NCBI GenBank assembly: GCA_045632925.1
Contig: JAZQXP010000067.1
Span: forward strand, 2,209-66,208
DNA from: Eubacteriales bacterium
GTDB lineage: Bacteria; Bacillota; Clostridia; Oscillospirales; CAG-272
Direction: 5' to 3'
Length of the DNA: 64,000 nucleotides
Numbering within the stretch: the first letter of the stretch is position 1; the number at the start of each line of letters is the position of its first letter. Below are positions 1-32,521 of the stretch, one piece after another. Under the pieces are notes generated by a model. It searched no databases. It was given only the letters and a program-made list of their open reading frames with translations, and was not told where the DNA came from. Both the position numbers and the translations under genes were made by a program.

Positions 1-114
1 AACAAGGGTCTGCGCTACCGCATTTTCGGCGCAATACAGCGTGGCGAGATCGACGGCTTCAAGCCGATCTCGAAGATGCAGGGAATGAAATCGTATGATG
101 AATCCGAAGAATAA
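1..114 (+). CDS. 3' end of an upstream gene (last 37 codons ...GFKPISKMQGMKSYDESEE*); product not identifiable
   Basis: Frame 1 is open from the window edge to TAA at 112-114. The stop abuts the RBS of the next gene. Confidence 0.4.
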   Translation, partial: NKGLRYRIFGAIQRGEIDGFKPISKMQGMKSYDESEE

Positions 115-127
115 AGGAGTTTTTGAT

Positions 128-1141
128 ATGGAAAGAATCAGAACCGGCGCCGCTTACCACGGCAACCGAATACTGCACCACGTCGCGGACGATATGGCAG
201 AAATGGCTCGTCAGAATATGGACGTTGTCGTTCATATGTTCTCGCACAACGACTGGGACCGCCACCTCGGCGTGATGAACGAGATCTGCAAGATCTCGGA
301 GTATAACGGGCTCGAGGTCTGGATCGACAACTGGGGCATCGGAGGCCCTCCCGGCGACAAATCGCACTTTCTGCAGTACCATCCCGAGGCACATCAGGTC
401 TACTCGGACGGCTCGATCGATCCCGTTTCCGCCTGCTACAACGCACCCGCATTCATAGGTTTCACAAAGAACTGGATCGAGGCTGTCGCATCCTTCGGAG
501 GCAAGAAGATCTTCTGGGACGAGCCCCACTTCAAGCAGAAGGGCGAGCTCTTCTCCTGCTGCTGCCCGACCTGCCGGAAGCTCTTTGAGGAAAAATACGG
601 TCATCCTATGCCTACCGAAATGACCGACGAGATGCGCGAGTTCAGAATTGATTCTCTCCTCCGCTACTTTGACACCGTCTGCTCCTACGCGGCATCTATG
701 GGCATCGAGAACAGCGTTTGCGTTATGCTCCACACCCTCGATTACGCGAAGAAGATCATGACTATCCCTACCCTTAATGACTTCGGAATCGACCCCTACT
801 GGCATCCCAAGAGCGGCAAGCGCGATCCTTACGAGTACGTTTACAAGTCCTCGAAGCAAATCATCGAGGAGACAAGCGCGATCGGAAAACAGAACCACAT
901 CTGGATCCAGAGCTACGACATCCCGCGCGGACGTGAGGACGAGATCATCGTTGCCGCCGACGCTGCTTACGACGCGGGTGCACGCACACTCATTTCCTGG
1001 GCATTCCGCGGAAGCGAGTCGAATACGTACAAGAGCGAATGCTGCGAGCGCGCCTGGGCCGCCACCTGCGAGGCGTTCAGACGAGTACGCTCCAGACATT
1101 TCGATGCGATCCGAGAGGCGAATTTTAAGAAGTTTAATTAA
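128..1141 (+). CDS. hypothetical cytoplasmic protein (possibly sugar-active TIM-barrel-like); function unknown
   Basis: ORF 95..1141. AAAGGAG at 113-119 favours ATG 128 (MERIRTG...). Host-like codon usage and no signal peptide. Confidence 0.6.
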   Translation: MERIRTGAAYHGNRILHHVADDMAEMARQNMDVVVHMFSHNDWDRHLGVMNEICKISEYNGLEVWIDNWGIGGPPGDKSHFLQYHPEAHQVYSDGSIDPVSACYNAPAFIGFTKNWIEAVASFGGKKIFWDEPHFKQKGELFSCCCPTCRKLFEEKYGHPMPTEMTDEMREFRIDSLLRYFDTVCSYAASMGIENSVCVMLHTLDYAKKIMTIPTLNDFGIDPYWHPKSGKRDPYEYVYKSSKQIIEETSAIGKQNHIWIQSYDIPRGREDEIIVAADAAYDAGARTLISWAFRGSESNTYKSECCERAWAATCEAFRRVRSRHFDAIREANFKKFN

Positions 1142-8837: not shown

Positions 8838-10673
8838 TTACTGTTCTATCGCGTCAGAACCGAAGTAGCTCAGTACGTTTTCCGAGAAAACGTAGATCTG
8901 AAATCCCTTTGCATCATTGGGATTCTCGTAATGTCTCAGATAGTATTCGTCCATCCAGCTCTGCCAGGTCTTGGTAGTGAACACCTTTTTATATTCGGAA
9001 GCCGAAAGGATAATGAAATACTCGTCGACTCCCTCCTGATCGTTGTACCAATTAAGGCTCGACTGATAATGGCGTCCGATAACGCCGTCGCGCTCGTTGA
9101 TATCCATATTGCGGACACGGACCTCGGAGTTTGACAGCACCGTTATCGCCTGCGAATACCAGAAGGTCGCGTAGCCGTATTCAAGTCCCTCAGAAACGAG
9201 GAATTCGGCAAGGCGGTGGTTGGTGTTATCCCTTCCGTAATCGGCGGGAAGCTTATCGATCTCCTTGGCAAAAACGAGCGAAGAAGCAAGCAGTACCGCA
9301 AGTACGAGCGAGCAGACTCTCGAGAGCACGACCGCGCCCGACTTTTTCGCCGAGACCTCGATCTCGGGAAGCTCCTCGGGGAGTATTTCGCCGTCATAAA
9401 GCTCGGCATCAGCCTCCGTAGGCTCTGCGATCTCTTCTTTTTCTTCAACTTTAATTAATCCGAAATCCGAAACAAGCTCGCGAAGTCCGCAAACGCAGAG
9501 CATTATCGAGCTTCCGAGAATGGGGGTAAGTCTCCAATTTGCCGCGCTGAGCTCACCGCAGATGTAACCGAACAGCACGACCGCTGTCAGCACGAAATGC
9601 GCCCAGACCATAACCTTCGTGCCCCTTGATCTGAGCTTGCCGTAGAGGCAGAGGATCACGATCGGCATAACGATCAGAATGATTCCGACAACGATTCGGA
9701 AGAAATATTTCAGCGACTCGACGTCAAAGAGAGGAGCGTTCTTCTCCATATCGACTCCGAGGAGCGAGAAATAGTGGTTTACAAACTTCTGCGCGTTCGA
9801 GAGCCACGCGGAAACCTCCGACCAGCCCGAATATCCTGCGGCATAGCCGGCTTTGATCTCACCGTCGTTTGTAATCTTGACAAGAACCTCGAGTCCGATC
9901 AGCGTGCCCGCAACAGAAAGTGCTGCAGCCGCAAGAGACGGGAGCGATTTTTGGGAGATAATTCCTTCTCCGCCCGCAAAGATCCTCTCTGCGGCAAAGG
10001 CGGCGATGGCGGGAAGCAGGGTCAGAACGAGGACCTGCATACCGTTTGTCGCGCTTCCGATCGAAACGCCGAGCAAAAGCAGTGCCCAGATAACCGTGCT
10101 TATCTTCTTGCCCTTCTCGATCGAATCGGCAACTCGCAATCCGAGTCCAAGCAAGTAAAACAGCAGAACGATTCCAAGGCTGTAATAGATCGTATGACCC
10201 CACATCATCTCGCGGAGCTTATCCGAGCAGGAAAGCACCATAAATACCGCGAAGACCGATGTACTACTCCAAAGATGGCTCAGCTTCGCGCTTCTTGCGA
10301 GGAAATAAATGCTTCCCGCGAAGAGAACGGCAAAGATCGCCATACCGAGATTGTGCGCCGTCATGCCGAAGCCGAAGATCTTTATCAGCGGCTGCATGAT
10401 CCATACCGTGGAAAACGGCAGAAGGGCGGCGTAGTTATACTGATCGTCAAAAATTCCGTTGCCCTCAAGCGCCGCATTTGCCCAATAGAGCGTGTCGGTG
10501 CAATCGGAGTGGAAATATCCCTCTCCGGGGCCATAGATATAATAGAAAGCAAGGTAGAGCGCGGCTATCATCGGCAGGCAGGCAAGAACGGCAAATGCGA
10601 TCCTGAACCAAAGCTTATTCGTGACTCCGCGCAGCTTGTCCCTTCCTTCGGTGAATATTCCCGAATTCATCAT
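8838..10673 (-). CDS. polytopic membrane protein, GT-C-fold glycosyltransferase-like
   Basis: About 12 predicted TM segments. First-loop DTLYWANA motif resembles the PMT/ArnT DExxY motif. Has a C-terminal soluble domain. ATGA overlap with the upstream gene. Confidence 0.6.
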
Positions 10674-12229
10674 TTGTTCTCGCTCTCGGTCTTTTCCTCG
10701 TGATATTCCTTCTCGGTGTTTACAGCCCAGACGGTTGCCTTGTCGCGACTTCCGTTCGAGATAGAACGAACCGCCTCAACCGCGGTGAGCATAGAGTGGT
10801 CCATATTGTTGTATCTGTGCTGACCGTTACGTCCGATGCACCAGAGGTTGTCGATGCCCGAAAGGTAATCCTTGACGGTATCGAACTCGGAATAGGTATC
10901 GAAATATGCGGGGTAAGCCTTCTTGACCTTGATGCGGGTCGAATCCTTGACGTCCTTCGGGTCTATAACGTCGATCTTCGCAAGCTCCGCGATAGCAAAA
11001 TCGATGAATTCCTTGTCGCTCATCTCCCAGAGATCGTCGCCCTCGTTGCAGAAATACTCGAGACCGATCCAAACGGTGTTCTCGGGGTCGGCAACAAGGT
11101 AGGGGGACCAGTTATTGAAGATCTGAAGTCTGCCGAGACGAACCTCGCGCTCCTGAACGTAGATCCAGCAGTCGGGCACGTTGCCTGTAAGGGTCTTTAC
11201 CTTGGTCTTGTTTTCAAGAAGAAGCTTGTCAACCAGGAGACCTACGGTGATGTAGTCGCGGTAAGGAAGTCCGTCGGCGATGCGGTGAACGTCGGCGGGT
11301 ACGGCGTCACCCATACCGTTTACGAGATCGCGAACGGGCATAGTCGAGAAGAACTCGTCGCCCTTGAATTCGCGTCCGTCGGCGGAGATAACGCTTGTGA
11401 CCTTTCCGTCCTCGAGTTTGATATCCTTGACAGAGCAGTTCATAACGATCTCGCCGCCCATCTCCTTGATGTCGTTTGCGAGAGCCTCCCAAAGCTGACC
11501 GGGGCCGAGCTTCGGATAGTAATACTGCTCGATAAGCGAGGTCTCAACCTTGTCCTTCGGGCGGAAGGGCTTGGAAATTACGTTCCAGACCGCCTTCATA
11601 AGAGACAGACCCTTGACTCTCTGCGCGCCCCAATCGGCGGAGATCTGCGAGGGATGGCGTCCCCAGAGATTTTCGGTATAATCCTCAAAGAACATTTCAT
11701 AGAGAGGTCTGCCGAAGCGGTTGATATAGAAATTCTCGAGCGAATCCTCGGGCTTCTTGACTATACAGCTTCCGAGATATCCGAATCCCGACTTCATCGT
11801 GCGGACAAAGCCCATATTCTTGAAGGTCTCGGGCTTGAGCGAGATCGGGTAATCGAAGAATTTGTGGAGGAAGAGGATGCGCGAGATACGGTTACGGAGC
11901 AGGAAAACTCTGTCCTCAGTCTCGGGATCGGGGCCGCCCTCGGCAAGATCCTTCTCTACTCCGAGCTTCTTGTCGTCGTATGCGGGTGCGCCCTGAAGGG
12001 GCATAAGCTCGCGCCAAAGCTCGTTCACTTCCTCGTTCTTCGAGAAGAAACGGTGTCCGCCGAGGTCCATGCGGTTGCCGTTGTAGCGCGCGGTACGCGA
12101 AATACCGCCGATATATTCGCTCTCTTCAAGGATTATCGGCTTGATGTCGGTCTCCTTGAGAAGCTTGTAAGCGGCTGTCAGACCCGCAGGTCCCGCGCCG
12201 ATGATGATTGCTGTTTTCTTTTCGCTCAT
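10670..12229 (-). CDS. NAD(P)/FAD-dependent oxidoreductase (UDP-galactopyranose-mutase/amine-oxidase-like)
   Basis: N-terminal Rossmann [25 protein letters not shown]. Confidence 0.75.
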
Positions 12230-12317
12230 TTTTTATTCTCCTGTGTATTGTACTACATTATATAAGACGGATTTTGTCGCAAAAGGTTTCACGAAATCCG
12301 AAATTTTTTCTGATTTT

Positions 12318-12591
12318 TAGAGTGACAAGAATAATCCGAACTAGCCCGTAAGCCTTACTTTTTGATGCTTTTGGGCTTGTCGTCCTAGCAAGGTTGATAC
12401 CTTGCGTCGTTCTCCGCACCCAAAATCATCTAAAAATTAAGGCTTGCGGGTCGGAGATTTTTTGGCTGACAAATATTTGTCAGCGGCAGGAAAACGCCGA
12501 AGATTGTATATTAATACTATCAAGGTGTTTGACGAACCGATGGCGAATATTTGACGCCATAAAACTAGTTCGTATTATTCTTGTCACTCTA
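12318..12591. mobile_element. 274-bp TIR-bounded non-autonomous element candidate (MITE-like)
   Basis: 27-bp terminal inverted repeats TAGAGTGACAAGAATAAT(C/A)CGAACTAG at 12318-12344 and 12565-12591 (one mismatch). The interior is full of short hairpins and has no ORF. Confidence 0.55.
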
Positions 12592-13278
12592 TTCAAGCGG
12601 CTCGAGACCGTAGTCCGCGAGCTTTTCGGGATAGATCCATTTCTGAGAATCGACCTCAAGCTCGCCCTCTTCATCGGGAAGATAGACGGCGTAGCAATAG
12701 ATGTCGGTCTCGGAGAAATAGCTGAATCGGTTCATCGCGCGAACCTCAAGCCGTCCGTGCTCGGTCCAGCCGTAGATATACTCGTCCTCGCGAAGCTCGT
12801 ACATCGGCGGCTCGTTTGCGTAAGTAGGCTCGTCGATGCGGCTCTCGACCTTATAGCTGACGATGCCCTCGCCGAATATCGGAGCGGTGACGCCCGAAAG
12901 CTTCGATTCAAGCTTGAACTCGCCGTCCTTATTCATATAGAAGAGATACTTCTCTTCCCCGGGCGTGCGGTTTTTCAGGACTGTGAAATCCTCGTCCCCG
13001 TCGCCGTCAAGATCACGGAGGGTAAAGCCGTAATTTTCCTTATCGTCGGAAAGCCAGGGCTCGTTGACGCGGTATTCGGTCTCGATCGAGGTGATCTCTG
13101 CTCCGCTATCACGGTCAATGACGGAGATCCTCGTTATCGCATTCGGCGAGCCGAAAAGCACGTAGGTATAATCCTCTCCCTCAACGCGGCAGAGCTCACT
13201 TCCGCCCGAGCAGGCGGTAACTGCGGCCAAAAGTATAAATAAAAAAATAATTGCTGAAAAAAATTTTTTTGCGGTCAT
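12589..13278 (-). CDS. hypothetical lipoprotein with DLDGDGDED (FG-GAP/VCBS-like) motif
   Basis: Lipobox VTAC. Good codon usage. The TAG stop lies inside the right TIR of the 12318-12591 element. Confidence 0.7.
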   Translation of the reverse strand: MTAKKFFSAIIFLFILLAAVTACSGGSELCRVEGEDYTYVLFGSPNAITRISVIDRDSGAEITSIETEYRVNEPWLSDDKENYGFTLRDLDGDGDEDFTVLKNRTPGEEKYLFYMNKDGEFKLESKLSGVTAPIFGEGIVSYKVESRIDEPTYANEPPMYELREDEYIYGWTEHGRLEVRAMNRFSYFSETDIYCYAVYLPDEEGELEVDSQKWIYPEKLADYGLEPLE

Positions 13279-13521: not shown

Positions 13522-13597
13522 GGGAGCATAGCTCAGCTGGGAGAGCATCTGCCTTACAAGCAGAGGGTCATAGGTTCGAGCCCTATTGTTCCCACCA
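13522..13597 (+). tRNA. tRNA-Val (UAC)
   Basis: Cloverleaf folded by hand. Anticodon loop CUUACAA. Encoded CCA. Confidence 0.9.
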
Positions 13598-13601
13598 TGA
13601 T

Positions 13602-13678
13602 GGCCCGGTAGCTCAGTTGGTTAGAGCGCCAGCCTGTCACGCTGGAGGTCGTGGGTTCGAGCCCCATCCGGGTCGCCA
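13602..13678 (+). tRNA. tRNA-Asp (GUC)
   Basis: Cloverleaf. Anticodon loop CUGUCAC. Encoded CCA. Confidence 0.9.
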
Positions 13679-13704
13679 TCATAAATACAGCGCCCTTGCT
13701 GTAT

Positions 13705-13780
13705 GCCTCTGTAGCTCAGTTGGTAGAGCAGGGGACTGAAAATCCCCGTGTCGTTGGTTCAATTCCGACCGGAGGCACCA
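13705..13780 (+). tRNA. tRNA-Phe (GAA)
   Basis: Cloverleaf. Anticodon loop CUGAAAA. Encoded CCA. Confidence 0.9.
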
Positions 13781-13783
13781 CCT

Positions 13784-13859
13784 GCGGATTTAGCTCATTT
13801 GGTAGAGCGCAACCTTGCCAAGGTTGAGGTGGCGGGTTCGATCCCCGTAATCCGCTCCA
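13784..13859 (+). tRNA. tRNA-Gly (GCC), copy 1
   Basis: Cloverleaf. Anticodon loop UUGCCAA. Encoded CCA. Identical to 15827-15902. Confidence 0.9.
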
Positions 13860-13896
13860 AAAACACGGGTACGTTATAACGTACCCGTTATTATTA

Positions 13897-13970
13897 GGCG
13901 CCATGGCCAAGCGGTAAGGCAAAGGTCTGCAACACCTCTATCCCCGGTCCGATTCCGGGTGGCGCCCCCA
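13897..13970 (+). tRNA. tRNA-Cys (GCA)
   Basis: Cloverleaf. Anticodon loop CUGCAAC. Encoded CCA. A hairpin (13866-13889) separates it from tRNA-Gly. Confidence 0.85.
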
Positions 13971-14006
13971 AAAAATTCCGAAAGCTTTTGCTTTCGGAAT
14001 TTTTTA
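13971..14006 (+). terminator. intrinsic terminator after the tRNA cluster
   Basis: ATTCCGAAAGC-TTTT-GCTTTCGGAAT followed by TTTTT. Confidence 0.8.
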
Positions 14007-14241
14007 TCCAAGCCGACGAAGGAGGCTTGGTATGTAATCAATGCGCTTGCGCATTGTATGTAATTGCGACGGAGTCGCGTATGGCATCACGCGCAAGCAT
14101 GCATATTCGTCGGCTTGATAACATACATTCCTTCGGAATGATTCCATGCAGCCCTTACGGGCTGAGGACATACCGCCTGCGGCGGATTTCATCCACGGCT
14201 ACGCCGTGATTTTGATGCGAAGGACGCGAAAGGAGAACGAA

Positions 14242-14595
14242 ATGGCAAAAAATCTTTTACTTGAATATTCCGAAGCGCTTGCTACAAAGTGTGAGTTGCT
14301 CTGTAAATCCATGAACAGCAATTCCAACACCGTTTTTCAGCTTCGCAAATCCTCGTCAAGCGTGTTCGCAAATATCACTGAGGCGCAGTATCCTCAAAGC
14401 CTTGCCGATATGCTCTCTAAATTCAAGATTGCAAGAAAAGAGTGCACGGAAACAGAGTCTTGGCTCAAATTGCTTTATAATACAAAGGTGATCGACGAAG
14501 CGACCTTCAAAACCTATCGCAACCTCTGTGGCAGAATACAGAGAATGCTCACCTCATCGTGTATCACGATTGAAAAGAAAATTGATAAAAAATAA
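14242..14595 (+). CDS. four-helix-bundle protein (23S rRNA IVS protein / Avd family)
   Basis: 117 aa and all-helical. Family-typical SSSSVFANITEA and ARKECTETESWLKLL segments. AAAGGAGA RBS. Confidence 0.7.
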   Translation: MAKNLLLEYSEALATKCELLCKSMNSNSNTVFQLRKSSSSVFANITEAQYPQSLADMLSKFKIARKECTETESWLKLLYNTKVIDEATFKTYRNLCGRIQRMLTSSCITIEKKIDKK

Positions 14596-15826: not shown

Positions 15827-15902
15827 GCGGATTTAGCTCATTTGGTAGAGCGCAACCTTGCCAAGGTTGAGGTGGCGGGTTCGATCCCCGTAATCCGCTC
15901 CA
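15827..15902 (+). tRNA. tRNA-Gly (GCC), copy 2
   Basis: 76/76 identical to 13784-13859. Confidence 0.9.
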
Positions 15903-15903
15903 G

Positions 15904-15939
15904 AAAAAAGCACATCTGCAACGCAGATGTGCTTTTTTT
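15904..15939 (+). terminator. intrinsic terminator
   Basis: AAAAAAGCACATCTGC-AACG-CAGATGTGCTTTTTTT. Confidence 0.85.
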
Positions 15940-15943
15940 CAGC

Positions 15944-16115
15944 TAAATCCGTCCTTGCGGACGGGGTAAATCCCACTATCGTGGGATGAAATCACTTCGT
16001 GATGAAATCCGACTTTGTCGGGAAAAAAGGACGGATTTAATTTCATCTGAGGCGGAACGCCCAAGATTTCATCCGAGCCGTGCGAGGATTTCATCGCGCC
16101 TCTCGCGATTTCATT
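15944..16115. repeat. array of GATTTCATC motifs interleaved with short hairpins
   Basis: Two inverted copies (GATGAAATC at 15985, 16001) then four direct copies (16039, 16065, 16087, 16107), spaced 16-26 nt apart. Small GC hairpins lie between them. Confidence 0.7.
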
Positions 16116-16127
16116 TTCCAAAGCATC

Positions 16128-19562: not shown

Positions 19563-20321
19563 TTTTGCCACCTTCAGCGCGGCTTTTTTACTTTCTCCGA
19601 TCGCGTGGTAGGGCAAAAGCTCGTGCTTGAGTCCTCGGTCGGTACAATATTTATTGATCCTTTCAAGCTCATCGCCGTCGTTGTAATCGGGAATGACGGG
19701 CGTGCGGATGATGATATCCTTTCCCATCCCGATAAGCTTTTCGAGATTCTCAAGTATCAGCGAGTTATCCGCTCCCGTGCCCTTTTTGTGAAGCTCGGGA
19801 TCGAGAGCCTTGACGTCGTAGAGAAAACACGAGGCATACGGCAATATCTTCTCGAAATTGCTCCAAGGCAGATTACCCGCTGTATCTATGGCAACGGAAA
19901 TACCGCTCACGGCGCATTTTTCGGCAATTTCTGCAAGGAAATCGGGATAGAGCATACATTCTCCGCCCGAAAAAGTCACTCCGCCGCCCGTAGCGCGGTA
20001 GTAGTCGATATCGGCGGAAACGACCTTGTAAAGCTCGTCCGCGGTGTATCTGCGACCGTAAAGCTTTCTCGCTTCCGCGGGGCAATTCTCTACGCATTCT
20101 CCGCAAATAGCACAGGAATCAGGGGTTGGACATACTTCTTTGCAAACGCCGCAACCGATGCATTTTTCGCTCATAAGCGCAAGCTCGGGCTCGGGCGACT
20201 TGCCCTCGGGATTGTGACACCACTTGCAATCGAGGTTGCAGCCCTTGAAAAATACCGCAGTCCGTATTCCCGGTCCGTCCACCGTCGAGGCGCGCTTTAT
20301 ATCAAAAATATAGGGTATCAT
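19560..20321 (-). CDS. glycyl-radical enzyme activating protein (radical SAM)
   Basis: CNLDCKWC cluster plus CIGCGVCKEVC and CAICGECVENC ferredoxin-like clusters. ATGA overlap with the upstream gene fixes the start at 20321. Confidence 0.9.
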   Translation of the reverse strand: MIPYIFDIKRASTVDGPGIRTAVFFKGCNLDCKWCHNPEGKSPEPELALMSEKCIGCGVCKEVCPTPDSCAICGECVENCPAEARKLYGRRYTADELYKVVSADIDYYRATGGGVTFSGGECMLYPDFLAEIAEKCAVSGISVAIDTAGNLPWSNFEKILPYASCFLYDVKALDPELHKKGTGADNSLILENLEKLIGMGKDIIIRTPVIPDYNDGDELERINKYCTDRGLKHELLPYHAIGESKKAALKVAK

Positions 20322-21253
20322 GCGTTTGTTAGGATCGTCATTTCCTCGTCGCTGAGGACAAGCTCGGCACCCGCGCAGTTGGCTCTGAAATGCTTGGGAT
20401 TCGAGGAAGAAAAGAGCGGTACCACTCTCGGAAATCCCTTCATGCGGTAGAGATTGCACATCCAGGCAACTGCAAGCGCGCTGTTAGTGATGCCCTTTTC
20501 CTTTGCCATATTTGCAAGCACGTCAAAGCGTGCGCCGCCAACGTAATTTTCGGGCAGACGGGAGATATCCTCGTATGCGCCGCGGATCAGACTCGAGTAC
20601 GCCACAAGCGGAATATCCTTGTTTTCAAGATATCGCAGACGCTCTCTGCCGACGTTTTCGTTGAAAATATAGTTCGGCTTGATGTCGTGACGGCAATGGA
20701 GATAGGAAAATCTCTGCTGCATAACGGTGTAGGGCGCACAACCATTATCCTTTGCAAGCTGATTGAACTCGGCAAAACGCCAGGTGTCGTAATTGCTTCC
20801 GCCGAGAACGCGAACCTTGCCCTTTTTTATCAGCGAATAGAACGCCTCAAGCGTCTCCTCCATCGGCGTATCGGGATCGTCCGTATGAGCGTAATAGAGG
20901 TCGATATAGTCGGTTCCGAGCTTGCGAAGACTCTCGTCGCACCAATATTCGATCTGCTCCCGCTTCAGACCCGCGCCTTCGCCGTGGCGGTCAAAGCCGA
21001 CCTTTGTGGCGATCACGACCTTATCGCGGCATCCGCGGTCGCGAAGCCATTCGCCGAGAAGCGTTTCGCTTTCGTCACCCGTGCCCGCCCAATGAGCGTA
21101 GTTATTCGAAGTGTCGATGAAATTGCCTCCCATCTCGAGATAGGCATCGAGAATGGCGTAAGCATCCTCCTTCGAAACGGTCGTGCCGAACATCATCGCG
21201 CCGAGACAGATCTCGGAAACCGAAAGCCCGTTATTCAACTTAACATTCTTCAT
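20318..21253 (-). CDS. aldo/keto reductase
   Basis: GAMMFG, FIDTSNNY and VIATKVG motifs. 12-nt gap to the GRE gene. Confidence 0.88.
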   Translation of the reverse strand: MKNVKLNNGLSVSEICLGAMMFGTTVSKEDAYAILDAYLEMGGNFIDTSNNYAHWAGTGDESETLLGEWLRDRGCRDKVVIATKVGFDRHGEGAGLKREQIEYWCDESLRKLGTDYIDLYYAHTDDPDTPMEETLEAFYSLIKKGKVRVLGGSNYDTWRFAEFNQLAKDNGCAPYTVMQQRFSYLHCRHDIKPNYIFNENVGRERLRYLENKDIPLVAYSSLIRGAYEDISRLPENYVGGARFDVLANMAKEKGITNSALAVAWMCNLYRMKGFPRVVPLFSSSNPKHFRANCAGAELVLSDEEMTILTNA

Positions 21254-27075: not shown

Positions 27076-28689
27076 TTAAAGAATCTTATGCGTAAGTCTG
27101 TTCGGCGTGCACATCTTGCCGTAGCAGTTGTTCGAGCCGTTAGGGACGGTACCCTCGAGGAGCTCGAATGCGAGCTCGGGGATCTCATCGATCTTGCCGC
27201 TTGTGTAGTCGAGCAGACGGCGGCGGCAGGAATCGGTTCTGCGGAGAAGTCCGCCGAGACGGATATCCTGAACGTCAAAGCCCGTGGGCTTGTTCTCGAT
27301 ATTCCACTGCTTCTCAAACGCGAGAGCAAACTTCTCGATCAGCTTGTATACCTCAACGTAATCCTTCTTCGCAAGCTTGCGGAGAATGTCCTTGTCGCCT
27401 GCAAGATAAGCCTGACGGGTGCGGATACCGAGATCGTACTTGACTGCAAGTGCGTCAGCGAGCTTTGCCGCGCTGTCAAAGAGGTATGCCCAGCGGCGGT
27501 ACTTCTTAGCGTAGCCGTGCCATTCCTCGGCAACCGACTCGATATACTCGCGCTGATTCGGGAGGAGACGGATATCGTTGAAGCCGTTGAAATAGTCGTT
27601 AAAGAGAACGAGCTTTGCGGTTGCATCGTTTCTGTTAGCCTTCTTGACGATCTCGTTGAGCTTATCGAGCGACATAAACGCGTCGTACTCCGCGCCGAAG
27701 ATGCGGCGGAAGCCCGCGCGGATCTTTTCCTCGTCGTCGTTACCCTTGAGGTACTGCGCGATGTTATGGAGAGCGGGAAGGATCGCGTAGCGCGAGCACT
27801 CGTGACCGTCGTCGCCCCACATGGTTACGAAAATATTCTTGATTTTGTGCTTGCGGCAAGCGTCGAGAGCATATCTCATCGCCAGGATCGAAAATGCGTT
27901 CATCGGGAGGAAGCCTCTCCAGGTCCAGGCACCGCCCGCAAACCAGGTCTTCTTCGAAAGCTGCTCGTGGTTATAGAGCATTCCGTCGTAAGCCGCCTCG
28001 TTGTCGCGGTAGTAATCCCAGTAAACGGGGATAACGTCCTCGGGAACAGCCTCAATGACTTCCTTAGGCATCTCGCGGCGGGGCTGGAAATAGGAATTGT
28101 TCGGGTCGATGCTGCGGAAGAACATATCCGACCACATCATCGGCTCGAAATCGTACTTGCGGACGATCTCGCATACCTTGGCAAGGTGACGCTTGATGAT
28201 CGAGGTGGGATGCTCGTAGCCGTGCAGATCCATGAATTTTCCGCGTCCGAGAGTCCAAGCCTCGTCCATACCGATATGGAGACGGCTGCTCTTGAAGCAT
28301 TCGCGGCAGGATTTGATCGCATTCTCGATGAACTCATAAGTACGGGGATCGTCAACGAGCATTGCGTCCTCATTGTCGATCGGAACCTTCTTCCACGGAA
28401 CAAAGCCCTGAAGATGCGCGAGGGTCTGGATGCAGGGGATGATCTCGATGCCCATACCCGATGCGTATTCGTCAAGCTCGATGAGCTCTTCCTTCGAGTA
28501 TCTTCCGCGCATGTAGCCGAGATAGGGCTCGCCGTCTACCTCATAGGTATCCTCTGTGTAGAGCATAACGCAGTTATAGCCCATCTTCTTCAGATAACCG
28601 AAATATTTCTTGAGTGCCTCTACGCTCATGACCGCATTTCTGGACATATCCAGCATTACGCCGAGCGTTTCGTAATTGAACTTTTTCAT
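27076..28689 (-). CDS. beta-N-acetylhexosaminidase family protein (GH20), cytoplasmic
   Basis: GVMLDMSRN and HIGMDEA catalytic-region motifs. No signal peptide. Confidence 0.8.
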   Translation of the reverse strand: MKKFNYETLGVMLDMSRNAVMSVEALKKYFGYLKKMGYNCVMLYTEDTYEVDGEPYLGYMRGRYSKEELIELDEYASGMGIEIIPCIQTLAHLQGFVPWKKVPIDNEDAMLVDDPRTYEFIENAIKSCRECFKSSRLHIGMDEAWTLGRGKFMDLHGYEHPTSIIKRHLAKVCEIVRKYDFEPMMWSDMFFRSIDPNNSYFQPRREMPKEVIEAVPEDVIPVYWDYYRDNEAAYDGMLYNHEQLSKKTWFAGGAWTWRGFLPMNAFSILAMRYALDACRKHKIKNIFVTMWGDDGHECSRYAILPALHNIAQYLKGNDDEEKIRAGFRRIFGAEYDAFMSLDKLNEIVKKANRNDATAKLVLFNDYFNGFNDIRLLPNQREYIESVAEEWHGYAKKYRRWAYLFDSAAKLADALAVKYDLGIRTRQAYLAGDKDILRKLAKKDYVEVYKLIEKFALAFEKQWNIENKPTGFDVQDIRLGGLLRRTDSCRRRLLDYTSGKIDEIPELAFELLEGTVPNGSNNCYGKMCTPNRLTHKIL

Positions 28690-28767
28690 TTTGTCCCTCC
28701 ATTGGAGTATTTAGTTGAGACCATTATATCATAAAAAATGAAGATTTGCAATAGGTTGGGGAGAATT

Positions 28768-28800
28768 AAGGTGAAAGGTGAAAGGGAAAAGGGAAAAGGT
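28768..28800. repeat. heptamer tandem repeat AAGG(T/G)(G/A)A x4.7
   Basis: AAGGTGA AAGGTGA AAGGGAA AAGGGAA AAGGT. Confidence 0.85.
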
Positions 28801-28877
28801 ATGGTAAATTTCCGCGCTTCGCCCGAAAATTATTTTAATTAAATTGCTTTTCGAGCAAAGCGAGAAAGGCTTCCTTA

Positions 28878-28905
28878 ACTCTGCACTCTGAACTCTGCAC
28901 TCTGA
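28878..28905. repeat. heptamer tandem repeat ACTCTG(C/A) x4, abutting a promoter
   Basis: ACTCTGC ACTCTGA ACTCTGC ACTCTGA. Same family as 52768-52795. Confidence 0.85.
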
Positions 28906-28913
28906 ACTTTTTC

Positions 28914-28942
28914 TTGACTTCTCTCCTCTTCTATGATATAAT
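28914..28942 (+). promoter_or_regulatory. promoter TTGACT-17-TATAAT (TG-extended)
   Basis: Hexamers at 28914-28919 and 28937-28942. Confidence 0.7.
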
Positions 28943-29542: not shown

Positions 29543-30307
29543 ATGAACCGTTTAGAAGGAAAAGTTGCAATTATCACCGGCGGTAACTCGGGCGTAGGAG
29601 CCGCAACCGCACAGAAATTTGCCGCTGAGGGCGCGAAGGTCGTCATCACGGCACGCAGAGAGGCACAGCTCGAAGAGGTTGCCGCAAAGATCCGCGAAGC
29701 GGGCGGCGAGGTTCTTCCCGTCGTCAGCGATATATCCAAGCCCGAGGACGCCAAGAGAGTTGTTGCCGAGACCATGGCTAAATTCGGCAAGGTCGACATC
29801 CTTATTAACAACGCGGGCGTTCTTGACAACGGACTCAAGGCAATCGACAGCGTTTCCGATGACGATATGAACAAGGTCATCGACATCAACACCAAGGGCA
29901 CAATGTGTATGACCCGTGAGGTTGCGGTCGAGATGGCAAAGACGGGCTACGGCTCTATCGTCAACGTAGCATCGGTTGCGGGCGTTATGGGCTGCGGCGG
30001 CGCAGCATACGTTGCATCCAAGGCTGCCGTTATCGGTCTTACCAGACACACCGCTCTCCGTTTTGCAGGAACTAACGTACGCTGCAACGCCATCTGCCCC
30101 GGCACGATCGTCACCCCCATGGTCGCAGGCATGAATCCCGCTAACATGGATATGAACATCTTCGGTCAGATGATGAAGCACAACGACCTCAAGGTTCAGC
30201 CCTGTATGCCCGAGGACGTAGCAAATATGCTTCTCTTCTTCGCCTCCGATGAATCGAGAGCGATCACGGGACAGACGCTTGTTACGGACTTTGGTTCAAC
30301 TCTTTAA
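29543..30307 (+). CDS. SDR-family oxidoreductase
   Basis: TGGNSGVG, NNAG and YVASK motifs. Confidence 0.88.
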   Translation: MNRLEGKVAIITGGNSGVGAATAQKFAAEGAKVVITARREAQLEEVAAKIREAGGEVLPVVSDISKPEDAKRVVAETMAKFGKVDILINNAGVLDNGLKAIDSVSDDDMNKVIDINTKGTMCMTREVAVEMAKTGYGSIVNVASVAGVMGCGGAAYVASKAAVIGLTRHTALRFAGTNVRCNAICPGTIVTPMVAGMNPANMDMNIFGQMMKHNDLKVQPCMPEDVANMLLFFASDESRAITGQTLVTDFGSTL

Positions 30308-30330
30308 TTCAAAACTAAAGACAACAGCAG

Positions 30331-30734
30331 CGAAAAAGTTTTCGTCCACCTTTTTCAAAAGGTGGCAGATTCTTAAGGCAGCGCCTTAAGTCGCGCTCCG
30401 CAGAGCGCGAAACTATCCCCCTGCGCTTCAAACGGGCGGCGTGTCGCCGCCCGTTTGGAAAGAGTAAAACCTACCCTTTGAGGGTAGGTTTTCGCTCTTT
30501 CATCCTCCGCGTGCCCAAAAGGCGCGCGGATTTTTAATTTTAATTAATATGCTAAACTTAGTTTTGGGGCACAGTATTACAAAATTTAAAAGTAAAGTCT
30601 CAACACCTCCCGCGATGTGAGGTGTTGAGACTTTCAAGCGGTCGGCAGGGACGCCGCCCGCTTGAAGCGAAAAGGAAGTTCCGACCTCTGCGGAGGTCGG
30701 CTTAAGAAACTTTTTTGAAAAAAAGTTTCTTAAG
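30331..30734. repeat. array of at least 10 unrelated GC-rich hairpins (REP/BIME-like mosaic) between convergent genes
   Basis: Hairpins at 30331-44, 30346-65, 30372-90, 30391-410, 30429-57, 30458-501 (nested), 30506-30, 30596-632, 30634-65, 30681-700 and 30701-34. Confidence 0.8.
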
Positions 30735-30760
30735 AAGCTTCAAAAAACTTTCCGCTGGTG

Positions 30761-32521
30761 TTATTTGCTCGTTTCCTCAATAAACTCATCGATCCTATCC
30801 GCAATCACCTGCAGGCTTGTGCGCCAGAATTCGGGTTTGGTCAGGTCGATGCCCGCGATATGAGCGACGTCCTCTACGCTCTCGACGGTCGTTGCCTTGA
30901 GAAGCGCGCGGTATTTGGGCAGGAACGCCTCGCCCTCCTCGAGATACTTCGCATAAAGTCCGCGCGAGAAGAGTCCGCCGAATGCGTAGGGGAAGTTATA
31001 GTAGCTGAGGCCTGCGCGATAGTAGTGGCTCTTGCAGCACCACATATAGGGATGCAGATAATTCGGGTCGAGACCGTCGCCGTAGGCTTCCTTCTGTGCA
31101 TTCAGCATGATCTCTTCAAGCTCGTCCGCGAACATGAACTTGTTCTTTCTGCGGCGGATGACCTCATCCTCAAAGAGGAAGCGCGAATAGATATCGACAA
31201 TGATCTGGTTGCAGTCCTGAATCTGGCTTTCGATAAGGGCGATCTTCTCCGCACCCTCTGCCTTCGAGATCGCGTCGTTTACGATGATGAGCTCGTTGAA
31301 GTTCGATGCAGTCTCGGCAACGGGCATGGTGTAGCCCGTGTTGAGCGGACGGTGGGACTCTATCTGCTGACCGTGGTATGCGTGACCGAGCTCGTGCGCG
31401 AGTGTGACTACAGAGCCGAAGCTGCCCGAGAAGTTGGTGAGAATACGGCTCTGACCGATGAAGGGCAGATTCGAGCAGAACGCGCCTCCGACCTTGCCCG
31501 CACGGGGATAAAAATCGATCCATTCCTCGCGGAATGCGCGGTCGACCATCTCTGCGAGGTCGGGAGCAAAGCTTTCAAAATGCTCGACGAGGTATTTGTG
31601 CGCCTCCTCGACAGTAAAGGTCTGTGTGCTTGCGTCGCCGATCTGCGCGTACATCTCGAACCAGGGCAGACCGTTTTCGTATCCGAGGAGCTTTGCTTTA
31701 TGGCGCATATACTCGCGGAACTTGGGCATGTACTCGCGCATAGCCTCGAGCATAGCGTCGAGGGTCGCCTTCTGCATACGTGAATCCTCGAGGGTCATTG
31801 CCAGCGGATCTGCGTAACCGCGGAGCTCTGCCTCGGTGTTGACCTGACACTTGATGCTGTTGAGCGCGAATGCAATAGAATCACGGATCTTTTGGTAGCA
31901 AGCAAGCTCAGCCTCGTAAGCCTCTTTACGGACGGTAGCATCATCACTCTCGGCAAGTCCGCGGATCGCGGAGAGAGTCGTCTTTTCGCCCTTATAATCG
32001 ACCTCTACGTTTGCAGTAAGATAGGAGAAGAGATCGCCCCAGGCTCTGCCGCCGCTGATCGAAAGCTTAGCAAAGACCTCCTCGGCTTCGTCGGAAAGCA
32101 TATGCGAGACCGATTTCTTTATCTCGTCAAAATAGAATCCGTATTCGCAAAGCACCTCGTCGCCCGCGATGACGGAATCAATATCCTCGATCGTGCCGAC
32201 GAACTTGTTGAACGCGACGTTTACCTTCGCGAGGGATGCCATCATACCCTGGATCTTGGTCATATAGACCGCGCCCGCAGTATCGGAGGAATTTGCCGAG
32301 CGGCGGAGGCTGAAGAAGCCCATAAGACGGCGGGTCAGCAGACCCATCTTTTCCTTGATATCAATAACACGGCGCAGGGATGCCGCGGGAGCAGAATCAT
32401 CGAGCTCCGCCACAGCGGTCTTGTATTCTCCGACGATCTCCTCGATCTTTTTCAGATCGGCTTCGATCGCGGGATCGTCCGCGCCCTTGTAAAATACGTC
32501 AAGTGACCATTCGTTATACAT
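30761..32521 (-). CDS. M3B-family oligoendopeptidase (PepF-like)
   Basis: HELGHAYH zinc motif. Typical length and C-terminal region. Confidence 0.88.
   Translation of the reverse strand: MYNEWSLDVFYKGADDPAIEADLKKIEEIVGEYKTAVAELDDSAPAASLRRVIDIKEKMGLLTRRLMGFFSLRRSANSSDTAGAVYMTKIQGMMASLAKVNVAFNKFVGTIEDIDSVIAGDEVLCEYGFYFDEIKKSVSHMLSDEAEEVFAKLSISGGRAWGDLFSYLTANVEVDYKGEKTTLSAIRGLAESDDATVRKEAYEAELACYQKIRDSIAFALNSIKCQVNTEAELRGYADPLAMTLEDSRMQKATLDAMLEAMREYMPKFREYMRHKAKLLGYENGLPWFEMYAQIGDASTQTFTVEEAHKYLVEHFESFAPDLAEMVDRAFREEWIDFYPRAGKVGGAFCSNLPFIGQSRILTNFSGSFGSVVTLAHELGHAYHGQQIESHRPLNTGYTMPVAETASNFNELIIVNDAISKAEGAEKIALIESQIQDCNQIIVDIYSRFLFEDEVIRRRKNKFMFADELEEIMLNAQKEAYGDGLDPNYLHPYMWCCKSHYYRAGLSYYNFPYAFGGLFSRGLYAKYLEEGEAFLPKYRALLKATTVESVEDVAHIAGIDLTKPEFWRTSLQVIADRIDEFIEETSK

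What the first reader, a model, noticed from the sequence alone, without database searches (positions are those of the whole stretch)
30331..30734. Four-hundred-bp array of at least ten different GC-rich hairpins between two convergent genes
Between the SDR stop (30307) and the M3B peptidase stop (30761) almost every base belongs to a short perfect or near-perfect hairpin. Examples follow. CGAAAA/TTTTCG (30331-44). CCACC..GGTGG (30346-65). CTTAAGG..CCTTAAG (30372-90). TCGCGCTC-CGCA-GAGCGCGA (30391-410). A 13-bp stem CAAACGGGCGGCG (30429-57). A nested hairpin (30458-501). 30506-30. A 14-bp stem AGTCTCAACACCTC (30596-632). 30634-65. CCGACCTC-TGCG-GAGGTCGG (30681-700). CTTAAGAAACTTTTTT/AAAAAAGTTTCTTAAG (30701-34). 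The stems are unrelated in sequence, so this is not a tandem repeat or a CRISPR array. One or two terminators would suffice for convergent genes. The organisation resembles enterobacterial REP/BIME mosaics, but with heterogeneous units. Similar hairpin-dense stretches recur at 12268-12560, 14008-14210, 15944-16115, 28800-28880 and 52525-52760. This looks like a genome-wide habit rather than a local accident.
Basis: seen in the sequence. Interest (0 to 1): 0.55.

Follow-up and report, generated by a model that had tools for sequence, protein, structure and literature searches.

The report
Paired modular hairpin repeat between genes
The 450-bp hairpin-packed spacer is two inward-facing, diverged copies of a previously uncatalogued modular hairpin repeat that sits just after stop codons in many gut Clostridia, so it is a REP/BIME-like dispersed element and not a local accident.

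Summary
The spacer 30308-30760 holds 8 of the window's 40 perfect hairpins and folds 11-14 SD better than dinucleotide shuffles on both strands.

The hairpins are not independent. The right half is a reverse-complement, about 80% identical copy of the left half. Each half is a module of about 170-210 nt: P0 AAAGTTTT, hp1 CTTTTTCAAAAG, hp2, hp3 with a CGCA loop, a linker, hp4, hp5 and a terminator-like hairpin. Each module starts 7-26 nt after the stop codon of the gene it follows, in that gene's orientation.

The module head is a dispersed family. Covariance models find paralogues at other loci in related ruminant-gut MAGs and more than 100 copies in metagenome contigs, up to 4 per 9 kb in a human-gut Negativibacillus contig. 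No Rfam family matches it.

Stems covary, but as discrete alleles that recombine. G-U pairs are rare. Orthologous arrays are more conserved than the flanking genes' synonymous sites, yet the closest relative carries an unrelated palindromic cassette at the same site.

Best reading: a REP/BIME- or BOX-like mosaic repeat, probably co-transcribed as a 3'UTR. Its function and its means of spread are inferred, not shown.

The parts
29543..30307 (+). Upstream gene of the left module: short-chain dehydrogenase/reductase. Stop codon at 30305-30307.
   Evidence: Pfam adh_short / adh_short_C2, E about 1e-57. ORF list.
30317..30535 (+). Left module (winL), in the sense orientation of the SDR gene. Order: leader AAAGACAACAGCAGCG, P0, hp1, hp2, hp3, linker, hp4, hp5, hp6.
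   Evidence: Head scores 101.6 bits with model R2 and the core scores 89.6 bits with R1. Architecture shared with paralogues.
30331..30344 (+). P0: CGAAAA-AG-TTTTCG, containing the family-invariant AAAGTTTT.
   Evidence: invariant columns.
30346..30365 (+). hp1: CCACC-TTTTTCAAAA-GGTGG. The CTTTTTCAAAAG core is invariant and the outer stem is allelic.
   Evidence: The exact sequence recurs in 10 metagenome loci.
30372..30390 (+). hp2: CTTAAGGC-AGC-GCCTTAAG, the most variable hairpin of the head.
30391..30410 (+). hp3: TCGCGCTC-CGCA-GAGCGCGA, an 8-bp stem with the conserved CGCA loop.
   Evidence: The same allele occurs in L009, L013 and L168.
30427..30460 (+). hp4: TTCAAACGGGCGGCG-TGT-CGCCGCCCGTTTGGA. 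It follows the linker AACTATCCCCCTGCGC (30411-30426).
30458..30501 (+). hp5: long hairpin of about 19 pairs with one unpaired base, GAAAGAGTAAAACCTACCC-TTTGA-GGGTAGGTTTTCGCTCTTTC.
30506..30541 (+). hp6: G+C-rich 10-bp hairpin followed by TTTTTAATTTT. Terminator-like end of the left module.
   Evidence: Terminator scan. Fold.
30542..30593 (.). Central A+T-rich spacer between the two modules. It is the least conserved part.
   Evidence: About 92% identity to L005 here, against 98-100% in the modules.
30594..30760 (-). Right module (winR), in the sense orientation of pepF. On the - strand it reads P0' (AGCGGAAAGTTTTTTG, about 30741-30756), fused hp1/hp2 (30701-30734), hp3' (30681-30700), linker, hp4' (30633-30666), then hp5' (30594-30634) followed by a T-rich run.
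   Evidence: 80% identity to the left module in reverse complement. R1 82.8 bits and R2 47.5 bits on the - strand. Fold.
30761..32521 (-). Upstream gene of the right module: M3B oligoendopeptidase F (pepF). Stop codon at 30761-30763.
   Evidence: Homologues carry PF08439 + PF01432 and are named M3 family oligoendopeptidase. Translation.

Best explanation
The spacer between the convergent SDR and pepF genes holds two inward-facing, diverged copies of one modular multi-hairpin repeat element. This part is shown. Each copy begins 7-26 nt after the stop codon of the gene it follows and has that gene's orientation. It runs through an ordered series of perfect palindromes: P0 AAAGTTTT, hp1 CTTTTTCAAAAG, hp2, hp3 with a CGCA loop, a linker, hp4 and hp5. 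It ends near the centre of the spacer in a terminator-like hairpin with a T-run. The element belongs to a dispersed, sometimes very high-copy family in gut Oscillospirales (Clostridia). Its conserved 80-nt head is joined to lineage-specific tails. Its hairpins exist as a limited set of alleles that are shuffled between copies. This part is inferred: each module is transcribed as the 3'UTR of its gene. There the stack of stable hairpins would stop transcription and block 3'-to-5' exonucleases, as REP/BIME and ERIC elements do in enterobacteria. The inverted pair would then act as a two-way stop between the convergent genes. Also inferred: the family is maintained and diversified at the DNA level, by gene conversion or module swapping among copies and by replacement of whole cassettes. 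The enzyme responsible, if any, is unknown.
For: Two-fold inverted symmetry with hairpin-by-hairpin correspondence. Paralogues with the same order of hairpins but different stems occur at other loci in related MAGs: L009, L010 and L013 at about 2130-2320, L011 at 20232-20365 and L041 at 9700-9884. A metagenome scan followed by model R2 gave 124 hits in 720 kb. Several contigs carry 3-4 copies in 4-14 kb, and many hits lie at contig ends. One dense carrier is Negativibacillus / Clostridium sp. CAG:169. On the seed alignment 97.4% of cells pair, and 17 of 24 pairs change on both sides. hp1 and hp3 alleles occur in many combinations. At one orthologous site hp1 and hp2 are swapped while hp3 onward is kept (L105/L151 against L143). 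The element's 5' end lies within 120 nt of a same-strand gene end in 40 cases (about 30 independent loci) and next to an opposite-strand gene in 4. Distances cluster at 3-29 nt. Convergent contexts number 23 and divergent contexts 1. G-U exceeds A-C by 44 to 17 in the module's orientation. hp6 is terminator-like. The modules are 98-100% identical between the window and L005, although pepF is 90% identical and its four-fold sites 70%. The same pattern holds at the second locus.
Against: There are no expression data, so transcription, termination and stabilisation are all inferred. Only 8 of 58 family copies have a strict intrinsic terminator within 260 nt downstream. In L009/L010/L013 and in L011 the module lies after a terminator, not before it. 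Stems are 94% Watson-Crick with only 2.4% G-U, and folding energies are the same on both strands. That fits DNA palindromes at least as well as a one-strand RNA. The conserved hp3 loop reads UGCG, a UNCG-type loop, on the opposite strand. Near-100% conservation of every module nucleotide is more than an exonuclease barrier should need. The gene calls behind the context statistics are crude. The metagenome loci were chosen by an exact head pattern.
Confidence: 0.55

Rival explanations
1. A purely selfish DNA element. On this reading it is a MITE- or REPIN-like non-autonomous transposon whose hairpins are single-strand DNA recognition structures for an unidentified transposase, for example an HUH/Y1 enzyme. 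Position and orientation would reflect only where insertions are tolerated. There would be no RNA-level role.
For: Stems are perfect Watson-Crick palindromes with no strand asymmetry in folding energy. The inverted pair has TIR-like ends, and L145 3716-4006 has perfect 35-nt P0-hp1 termini. The family is high-copy and breaks contigs. Orthologous sites show presence or replacement: L004, L001 and L010 carry other cassettes, and L001's is inverted relative to L004's. Modules are near-identical between genomes whose synonymous sites are 30% diverged, as expected after recent spread or conversion. The family is enriched in convergent spacers and avoids divergent ones, as REPs are.
Against: No target-site duplication is visible at the window element or at L145. 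No transposase lies next to any copy examined, and none is among 30 window proteins. No 5' GTAG tag is present. The 5' end is anchored within about 30 nt of same-strand stop codons, which simple tolerance of insertions does not predict. G-U exceeds A-C 2.6-fold in one orientation. There are no hits in plasmid or phage record collections.
Confidence: 0.25
2. A DNA-level architectural site, by analogy with BIME elements. The palindromes would bind a topoisomerase or a nucleoid protein, or extrude as cruciforms. That would relieve the positive supercoiling that builds up between convergent genes.
For: The family has a strong preference for convergent spacers, 23 against 1 divergent. The hairpins are perfect palindromes on both strands. 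The short sequence blocks AAAGTTTT and CTTTTTCAAAAG are invariant and could be protein sites. Sequence conservation is very high. That BIMEs bind gyrase and IHF in E. coli is established knowledge, not tested here.
Against: No protein partner is known and nothing here tests binding. Many copies lie between co-directional genes (15 SS cases). Some are short intercistronic copies, such as the one upstream of serS and the one upstream of tuf.
Confidence: 0.08
3. A specific structured RNA. It would be a cis-regulatory 3'UTR element or a source of small RNAs that binds a dedicated protein or target, and not a generic stability element.
For: Ordered hairpins with conserved loops and linkers and covarying stems. 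Sense orientation next to stop codons. A G-U excess in the sense orientation. Conservation above that of coding sequence. Another array type in the same genomes matches the orphan Rfam motif Gut-1.
Against: The flanking genes are functionally unrelated: pepF, SDR, serS, tuf, ftsH and others. Tails differ between lineages. Covariation comes as swapped alleles, with almost no one-sided intermediates. Whole hairpins are gained and lost (L009L against L013L). At the same site the element is replaced by unrelated cassettes.
Confidence: 0.1
4. A local accident. Terminators and quasi-palindromes would have piled up in one long spacer by chance or by template-switch mutation, with no family behind it.
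For: The window holds only this one occurrence of the family. Template switching can turn quasi-palindromes into perfect ones (established knowledge).
Against: The same ordered module occurs at other loci and in more than 100 metagenome copies. z is -11 to -14 against shuffles. The two halves are homologous.
Confidence: 0.02

Closest known systems
REP / BIME elements of enterobacteria (RAYT-associated palindromic units arranged as mosaics)
   Same: Extragenic and G+C-rich. Stems are near-perfect palindromes of 8-16 bp. Units with alternative alleles are combined with conserved linkers into mosaics. They lie mostly after genes and between convergent genes. Inverted pairs occur, as in REPINs. 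Copy number is high in some genomes.
   Different: No 5' GTAG/GTGG tag on any hairpin. The unit is an ordered series of 5-7 different hairpins (about 200 nt), not one palindromic unit. No RAYT gene was seen. The host is a Firmicute. The 5' end is anchored within about 30 nt of a same-strand stop codon.
BOX elements of Streptococcus pneumoniae (modular boxA-boxB-boxC repeats)
   Same: A modular intergenic repeat in a Firmicute, built of sub-elements that vary in number and fold into stable stem-loops. No transposase of its own is known.
   Different: No sequence similarity. Here the modules are individual perfect hairpins with swapped alleles. BOX has no reported stop-codon anchoring. This comparison rests on my own knowledge and was not tested.
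ERIC/IRU and Correia-type MITEs
   Same: Length of 100-450 bp, terminal inverted symmetry, inserted in transcribed intergenic DNA. Those elements fold as RNA hairpins, with orientation-dependent effects on neighbouring mRNAs.
   Different: Those families have TA target duplications and homogeneous sequence. Here no duplication is seen, and copies differ by whole-hairpin alleles.
Rfam Gut-1 RNA motif (RF01706)
   Same: It is also an array of variable hairpins separated by a conserved spacer (UGAAAU). It is found in the same genomes, also as inverted pairs after genes. In L004 it occupies the very site where L009, L010 and L013 carry a module of the present family.
   Different: The target region does not match the Gut-1 model. 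The spacers and the order of hairpins differ.
Integron attC sites
   Same: Structure-conserved, sequence-variable imperfect palindromes lying directly 3' of ORFs in the sense orientation.
   Different: The neighbours here are syntenic housekeeping genes in convergent and mixed orientation, not a co-oriented cassette array. No R''/R' core sites or integrase were seen. The element has several hairpins, not one.

Membership tests
REP/BIME (RAYT-associated) | GTAG or GTGG tetranucleotide 0-2 nt 5' of the hairpin (definition quoted in PMC6006769) | tested here: not met
   No hairpin in 30308-30760 is preceded by GTAG or GTGG. The only GTAG lies inside the hp5 stem (AGGGTAGG).
REP/BIME (RAYT-associated) | Fully paired basal stem of 7-20 nt with a loop of 2-5 nt, in an extragenic position | tested here: met
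   Stems are 8-16 bp, mostly with loops of 2-4 nt (hp5' has a 9-nt loop), and all lie between the two stop codons.
REP/BIME (RAYT-associated) | Many copies per genome | tested here: inconclusive
   Two copies in this 64-kb window. One to three copies per 22-kb locus in close relatives. Up to 4 per 9 kb in other gut Clostridia. The source genome as a whole is not available.
REP/BIME (RAYT-associated) | A RAYT (Y1 HUH transposase) gene flanked by family members | not testable with these tools
   No Y1_Tnp hit among 30 window proteins. The rest of the genome is not held.
MITE | Terminal inverted repeats | tested here: met
   The two modules are 80% identical in reverse complement over about 95 nt. 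L145 3716-4006 has perfect 35-nt termini.
MITE | Target-site duplication flanking the element | tested here: not met
   No direct repeat flanks the window pair or the L145 element on inspection. The element boundaries are not known to the base.
MITE | A related autonomous IS with the same termini | tested here: inconclusive
   None was found in the loci held. The 1.9-kb stretch between facing copies in L100 encodes an HTH protein, not a transposase. No collection-wide search was made.
Rfam Gut-1 (RF01706) | Covariance-model score at or above the gathering threshold (50 bits) | tested here: not met
   There is no Gut-1 hit in 30200-30850 even at E <= 10. Other sites do match: window 15940-16013 at 50.1 bits and L004 350-420 at 55.2 bits.
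Any Rfam 15 family | Score at or above the family's gathering threshold | tested here: not met
   The best hit in the region is rnk_pseudo at 27.9 bits, against a threshold of 55. No family covers elements in eight other loci.
Intrinsic (Rho-independent) terminator | G+C-rich hairpin followed directly by a T-run | tested here: met
   Met for hp6 (30506-30530 + TTTTTAATTT), and hp3' is flagged on the - strand. hp5' is followed by ACTTTTAAATTTT. The other eight or more hairpins lack T-runs, so terminators explain at most 2-3 of them.
CRISPR array / tandem repeat | Regularly spaced direct repeats | tested here: not met
   Only short two-copy direct matches were found, with no periodic family.
Integron attC | R''/R' core sites (RYYYAAC / GTTRRRY), a co-oriented cassette array and an integrase nearby | tested here: not met
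   The flanking genes are convergent, syntenic housekeeping genes. No integrase is among the scanned proteins. The core-site consensus is recalled from knowledge and was not formally scanned.

The most novel reading that the evidence does not exclude
Gene 3' ends in this Oscillospirales lineage may be served by interchangeable, mobile 'end cassettes'. Three structurally related but non-homologous types would fill this role: the P0-hp1-hp2-hp3 hairpin family, Gut-1-type hairpin arrays and heptamer-repeat palindromes. A dedicated recombination system, still unknown, would install, invert and swap them right after stop codons, where they would act as RNA-level 3'UTR modules. This would be a new kind of mobile regulatory element. 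It would also give the orphan Gut-1 motif a biological context.
Probability: 0.2. Interest if true: 0.75.

Novelty: new variant of a known kind. Interest (0 to 1): 0.5.

Why it matters
If this reading is right, a large share of genes in abundant but mostly uncultured gut Clostridia, such as Negativibacillus and ruminant-hindgut Oscillospirales, carry a common 80-nt structured head in a 3'UTR of about 200 nt.

- The element is absent from Rfam, and I found no description of it in the literature searched.
- It would affect terminator and operon prediction.
- It would affect MAG assembly, because contigs break at these elements.
- It would confound covariation-based ncRNA discovery, because swapped hairpin alleles imitate compensatory evolution.
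- It ties the orphan Gut-1 motif to a wider landscape of hairpin arrays that replace one another at the same sites.
- It gives a Firmicute counterpart for studying how REP/BIME-like mosaics arise and persist without a visible RAYT.

Tried and rejected
- **Rfam.** Searches at gathering threshold and at permissive E-values gave no family for the region.
- **Exact-protein look-ups.** pepF and SDR from the window are not on record. Homologues were used instead.
- **Model R1 (hp3-hp4 core).** It found only close relatives. The more conserved part proved to be the head (P0 to hp3), modelled as R2.
- **'Every module ends in an intrinsic terminator'.** Rejected as a general rule: only 8 of 58 copies meet it.
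- **Transposase between facing copies.** None was found in L100.
- **RAYT or other transposase in the window.** None among 30 proteins scanned.
- **Plasmid and phage record collections.** No match. IMG/VR viral contigs gave mostly weak or partial head matches: seven at 45-60 bits and the rest at 28-45.
- **Literature.** Searches for Gut-1, for REPIN/RAYT in Firmicutes, for MITEs in Clostridiales and for the motif string itself found no description of this family.
- **Other identities considered and dropped.** CRISPR, tandem repeat, attC, group II intron remnant, riboswitch, IS200/IS605 ends with omega RNA, and a small ORF in the centre. No supporting feature was found for any of them.
- **Covariation as proof of RNA function.** Rejected. 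The seed was picked for perfect stems, alleles are discrete and recombine, and one-sided changes are nearly absent.

Full report
**Observation**

The spacer between the stop codon of a short-chain dehydrogenase (SDR, 29543-30307, +; Pfam adh_short) and the stop codon of an M3B oligoendopeptidase (pepF, 30761-32521, -) is 453 bp long.

Eight of the window's 40 perfect hairpins (stem >=8) fall in it. It is the only place in 64 kb with five chained perfect hairpins. Folded whole, it reaches -224.7 kcal/mol (+) and -223.0 kcal/mol (-), with z = -14.3 and -14.5 against dinucleotide shuffles.

With pairing restricted to 80 nt, z is -11.4 and -12.1 and MFE per nt is -0.44. That is the most extreme of 17 intergenic regions. 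Coding controls range from -2.1 to +1.1.

**Anatomy**

The hairpins are not independent. The inverted-repeat search showed long-range complementarity: 30385-30414 with 30677-30706, and 30424-30442 with 30651-30669. Aligning 30366-30462 (+) with 30630-30740 (-) gives 80% identity.

The pattern CTTAAGNCGNNCTCCGCAGAGNNCGNAAC occurs exactly twice in the window, once on each strand, where none is expected by chance. So the region is two inward-facing copies of one ordered module.

- **Left copy (30317-30535, +).** Leader; P0 CGAAAAAGTTTTCG; hp1 CCACC-TTTTTCAAAA-GGTGG; hp2 CTTAAGGC-AGC-GCCTTAAG; hp3 TCGCGCTC-CGCA-GAGCGCGA; linker; hp4 TTCAAACGGGCGGCG...TTTGGA; a long hp5; then hp6, a G+C-rich hairpin followed by TTTTTAATTTT and flagged as terminator-like.
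- **Right copy (30760-30594, -).** The same order with different stems, for example CCGACCTC-CGCA-GAGGTCGG. It ends in a 16-bp hairpin followed by a T-rich run.

Each copy has the orientation of the gene it follows. The left module head starts 26 nt after the SDR stop codon, and the right one 7 nt after the pepF stop codon.

**Source organism and orthologous sites**

The nearest pepF proteins (92% identity or less in the protein collection, up to 98% in GTDB genomes) come from uncultured Clostridia, Eubacteriales and Oscillospiraceae MAGs. Those with a stated host (the RGIG set) are from goat, cattle, yak, deer and sheep hindgut.

The pepF-SDR spacer differs sharply among these relatives.

| Locus | pepF protein identity to window (tblastn) | What occupies the spacer |
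|---|---|---|
| L005 | 96% | The same array, 98% identical over 454 nt |
| L009, L013 | 91%, 90% | A homologous array with changed stems and gain or loss of whole hairpins: two extra TTC-loop hairpins in L009, a different hp2 in L013 |
| L004 | 98% (closest) | An unrelated cassette: 31-nt inverted arms of (AATGCAA)n abutting both stop codons, around one terminator |
| L001 | 91% | The same heptamer cassette as L004 |
| L010 | 91% | A third cassette, built on (GTTGCTA)n |
| L006-L008, L011, L012 | 92% | Different synteny and no cassette |

The L001 cassette is inverted relative to L004's. The best alignment is on the minus strand, 84.6% over 156 nt.

**Conservation**

Between the window and L005, pepF is 90.0% identical at the nucleotide level and 69.6% at four-fold degenerate sites. 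The two modules are 98-100% identical and the central spacer about 92%. Identity drops to 88-92% in the first 50 nt of both flanking genes.

At a second locus, modules of L009, L010 and L013 are 96-100% identical while their flanks are 84-96%. The modules therefore evolve more slowly than coding DNA, or they are renewed by conversion. I cannot tell which.

**A dispersed family**

BLAST and two covariance models (R1 for hp3-hp4, R2 for P0-hp3) found paralogues at other loci:

- L009, L010 and L013 at about 2130-2320, between a terminator and the next promoter.
- L011 at 20232-20365.
- L041 at 9700-9884.

All have the same order of hairpins but different stems. None of the roughly 70 more distant genome loci has a copy, and the window has only these two.

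In 94 of those loci plus the window and five genome loci, R2 then found 124 hits at E < 1e-3. They include copies that lack the exact pattern, several contigs with 3-4 copies in 4-14 kb, and many hits at contig ends, the signature of a repeat that breaks assemblies.

One dense carrier, L108, is Negativibacillus sp. / Clostridium sp. CAG:169, judged by an identical FtsH. No Rfam family matches the elements. Plasmid and phage record collections gave no match. IMG/VR contigs gave mostly weak or partial head matches, seven of them at 45-60 bits.

**Structure statistics**

On an 18-sequence seed, 97.4% of cells pair. Seventeen of 24 pairs change on both sides (84 cells), against a single one-sided change. 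That seed was chosen for perfect stems, so it is biased.

In the model-derived alignment of 80 hits the counts are Watson-Crick 1720, G-U 44, A-C 17 and other 53. For the window family, G-U pairs make up 2.4% in the sense orientation and 3.4% in antisense, with equal folding energies.

The stems fall into discrete alleles:

- hp1 has CAAGC, CCACC, CAGCC, CGACC and others.
- hp3 has TCGAGCTC, TCGCGCTC, TCGCTCTC, CCGACCTC and others.

These alleles occur in many combinations. At one orthologous site, hp1 and hp2 are exchanged while hp3 onward is unchanged (L105/L151 against L143).

So much of the apparent compensatory evolution is module swapping between copies. Covariation here is not by itself evidence for an RNA function.

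**Genomic context**

I used a strand-symmetric, crude gene caller. The element's 5' end lies within 120 nt downstream of a same-strand gene end in 40 cases, about 30 independent loci after removing orthologues. It lies next to an opposite-strand gene in 4 cases. Distances cluster at 3-29 nt.

Convergent contexts number 23 and divergent contexts 1. Among co-directional contexts, 15 are sense and 7 antisense. Only 8 of 58 copies have a strict intrinsic terminator within 260 nt downstream, so 'ends in a terminator' holds for the window's left copy but not for the family as a whole.

**Interpretation**

Shown:

- The finding is an inverted pair of a modular hairpin repeat.
- The repeat belongs to a dispersed, uncatalogued family of gut Oscillospirales.
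- Members are anchored after stop codons in the sense orientation.
- Hairpin alleles are shuffled between copies.
- The site undergoes wholesale cassette replacement.

Inferred:

- The modules are co-transcribed as 3'UTRs.
- The hairpin stacks act as transcription stops and as barriers to 3' exonucleases for both convergent genes, as REP/BIME and ERIC elements do.
- Spread and maintenance occur at the DNA level by conversion or by an unknown enzyme.

The main rival is a purely selfish MITE- or REPIN-like DNA element. In its favour are perfect palindromes on both strands, TIR-like ends, polymorphism between genomes and recent-looking identity. Against it are the absence of a target-site duplication, of any transposase and of a GTAG tag, plus the stop-codon anchoring.

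Lesser rivals are a DNA architectural or gyrase site of the BIME type and a specific regulatory RNA. A purely local accident is excluded by the paralogues.

**Comparison with known systems**

The element works like REP/BIME mosaics, BOX, or ERIC- and Correia-type MITEs. It fails the REP definition, because no hairpin has a 5' GTAG/GTGG tag (for the definition). It also fails the MITE criterion of a target-site duplication. It matches no Rfam model.

I therefore file it as a new variant of the known kind 'modular palindromic intergenic repeats'. Its distinctive traits are the ordered heterogeneous hairpins, the allele shuffling and the anchoring to gene ends.

**The wider habit**

Other element types in the same genomes share the design of large imperfect palindromes made of small hairpins or short repeats.

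- **Gut-1 arrays.** The window carries an inverted pair, 15940-16013 (+) and 16035-16116 (-). L004 350-420 matches at 55.2 bits. In L004 the Gut-1 array sits exactly where L009, L010 and L013 carry a module of the present family.
- **Heptamer-repeat cassettes.** They occur in the window at 28766-28908 and 52487-52798, and in L001, L004 and L010.

This interchangeability is the most intriguing loose end and the basis of the 'novel case'.

Noticed in passing
window 15940-16013 (+) and 16035-16116 (-); L004 230-420: The window carries an inverted pair of Gut-1 RNA (RF01706) arrays, built of UGAAAU plus variable hairpins. They score 50.1 bits (+) and 21.1 bits (-) and lie after tRNA-Gly and its terminator. 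L004 has a Gut-1 array (55.2 bits) at the site where L009, L010 and L013 carry a module of the P0-hp3 family. Gut-1 was an orphan motif known only from human gut; here it sits in ruminant-gut Oscillospirales MAGs.
   Followed up: partly
window 28766-28908 and 52487-52798; L001 5762-5934; L004 11759-11960; L010 11759-12075: These are cassettes bounded by tandem heptamer repeats: GGTGAAA/GGGAAAA, CTCTGCA/CTCTGAA, AATGCAA and GTTGCTA. Often the repeats form inverted arms that abut stop codons or sit just upstream of a -35 box (TTGACT-17-TATAAT at 28914-28942). The L001 and L004 cassettes are in opposite orientations relative to the flanking genes. L004 has a small hairpin inserted between heptamers.
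   Followed up: partly
window 14008-14210 and 14243-14595: An array of short hairpins is separated by TATGTAAT, and further on by ACATAC and ATTTCAT, as spacers. It lies directly upstream of a gene of the 23S_rRNA_IVP / four-helix-bundle family (PF05635, E 1.5e-18).
   Followed up: no
window 12319-12345 and 12566-12592: Terminal inverted repeats of about 25 nt with one mismatch (GAGTGACAAGAATAATCCGAACTAG against its complement) flank about 220 bp. This looks like a separate MITE-like element in the divergent spacer 12230-12588.
   Followed up: no
L041 9585-9690; L017 about 11810-11840; L019 about 190-240; L145, L157 and L106 upstream of the module heads: GTAG/CTAC-tagged hairpins, such as GGGCGAAC-ACA-GTTCGCCC-CTAC, and a REPIN-like inverted pair occur in related genomes. 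Sometimes they lie directly upstream of the P0 head. Canonical REP-like units therefore coexist with the family studied here.
   Followed up: no
window, e.g. 27088-28734 (+) opposite GH20 27076-28689 (-); 95-1141 (+) and 59-1099 (-): Long 'shadow' ORFs run antisense to real genes over nearly their full length. They can mislead ORF-based annotation of this genome.
   Followed up: no
window 13522-13970 and 15827-15902: There is a tRNA cluster (Val, Asp, Phe, Gly, Cys) and a second tRNA-Gly(GCC). Each is followed by a long perfect terminator hairpin: 13970-14005 and 15904-15938.
   Followed up: no
metagenome loci L149, L154, L166, L167, L198, L202, L085, L094: A separate repeat subfamily shares only the P0-hp1 head (AAAAGTTTTGCGGAGCTTTTTCAAAAGCGACCG), followed by CTTAC/CTTGC-rich short repeats. 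It occurs on contigs (source environment not checked) that carry no hp2-hp3 part. The head motif may therefore be more widespread than the full module.
   Followed up: no
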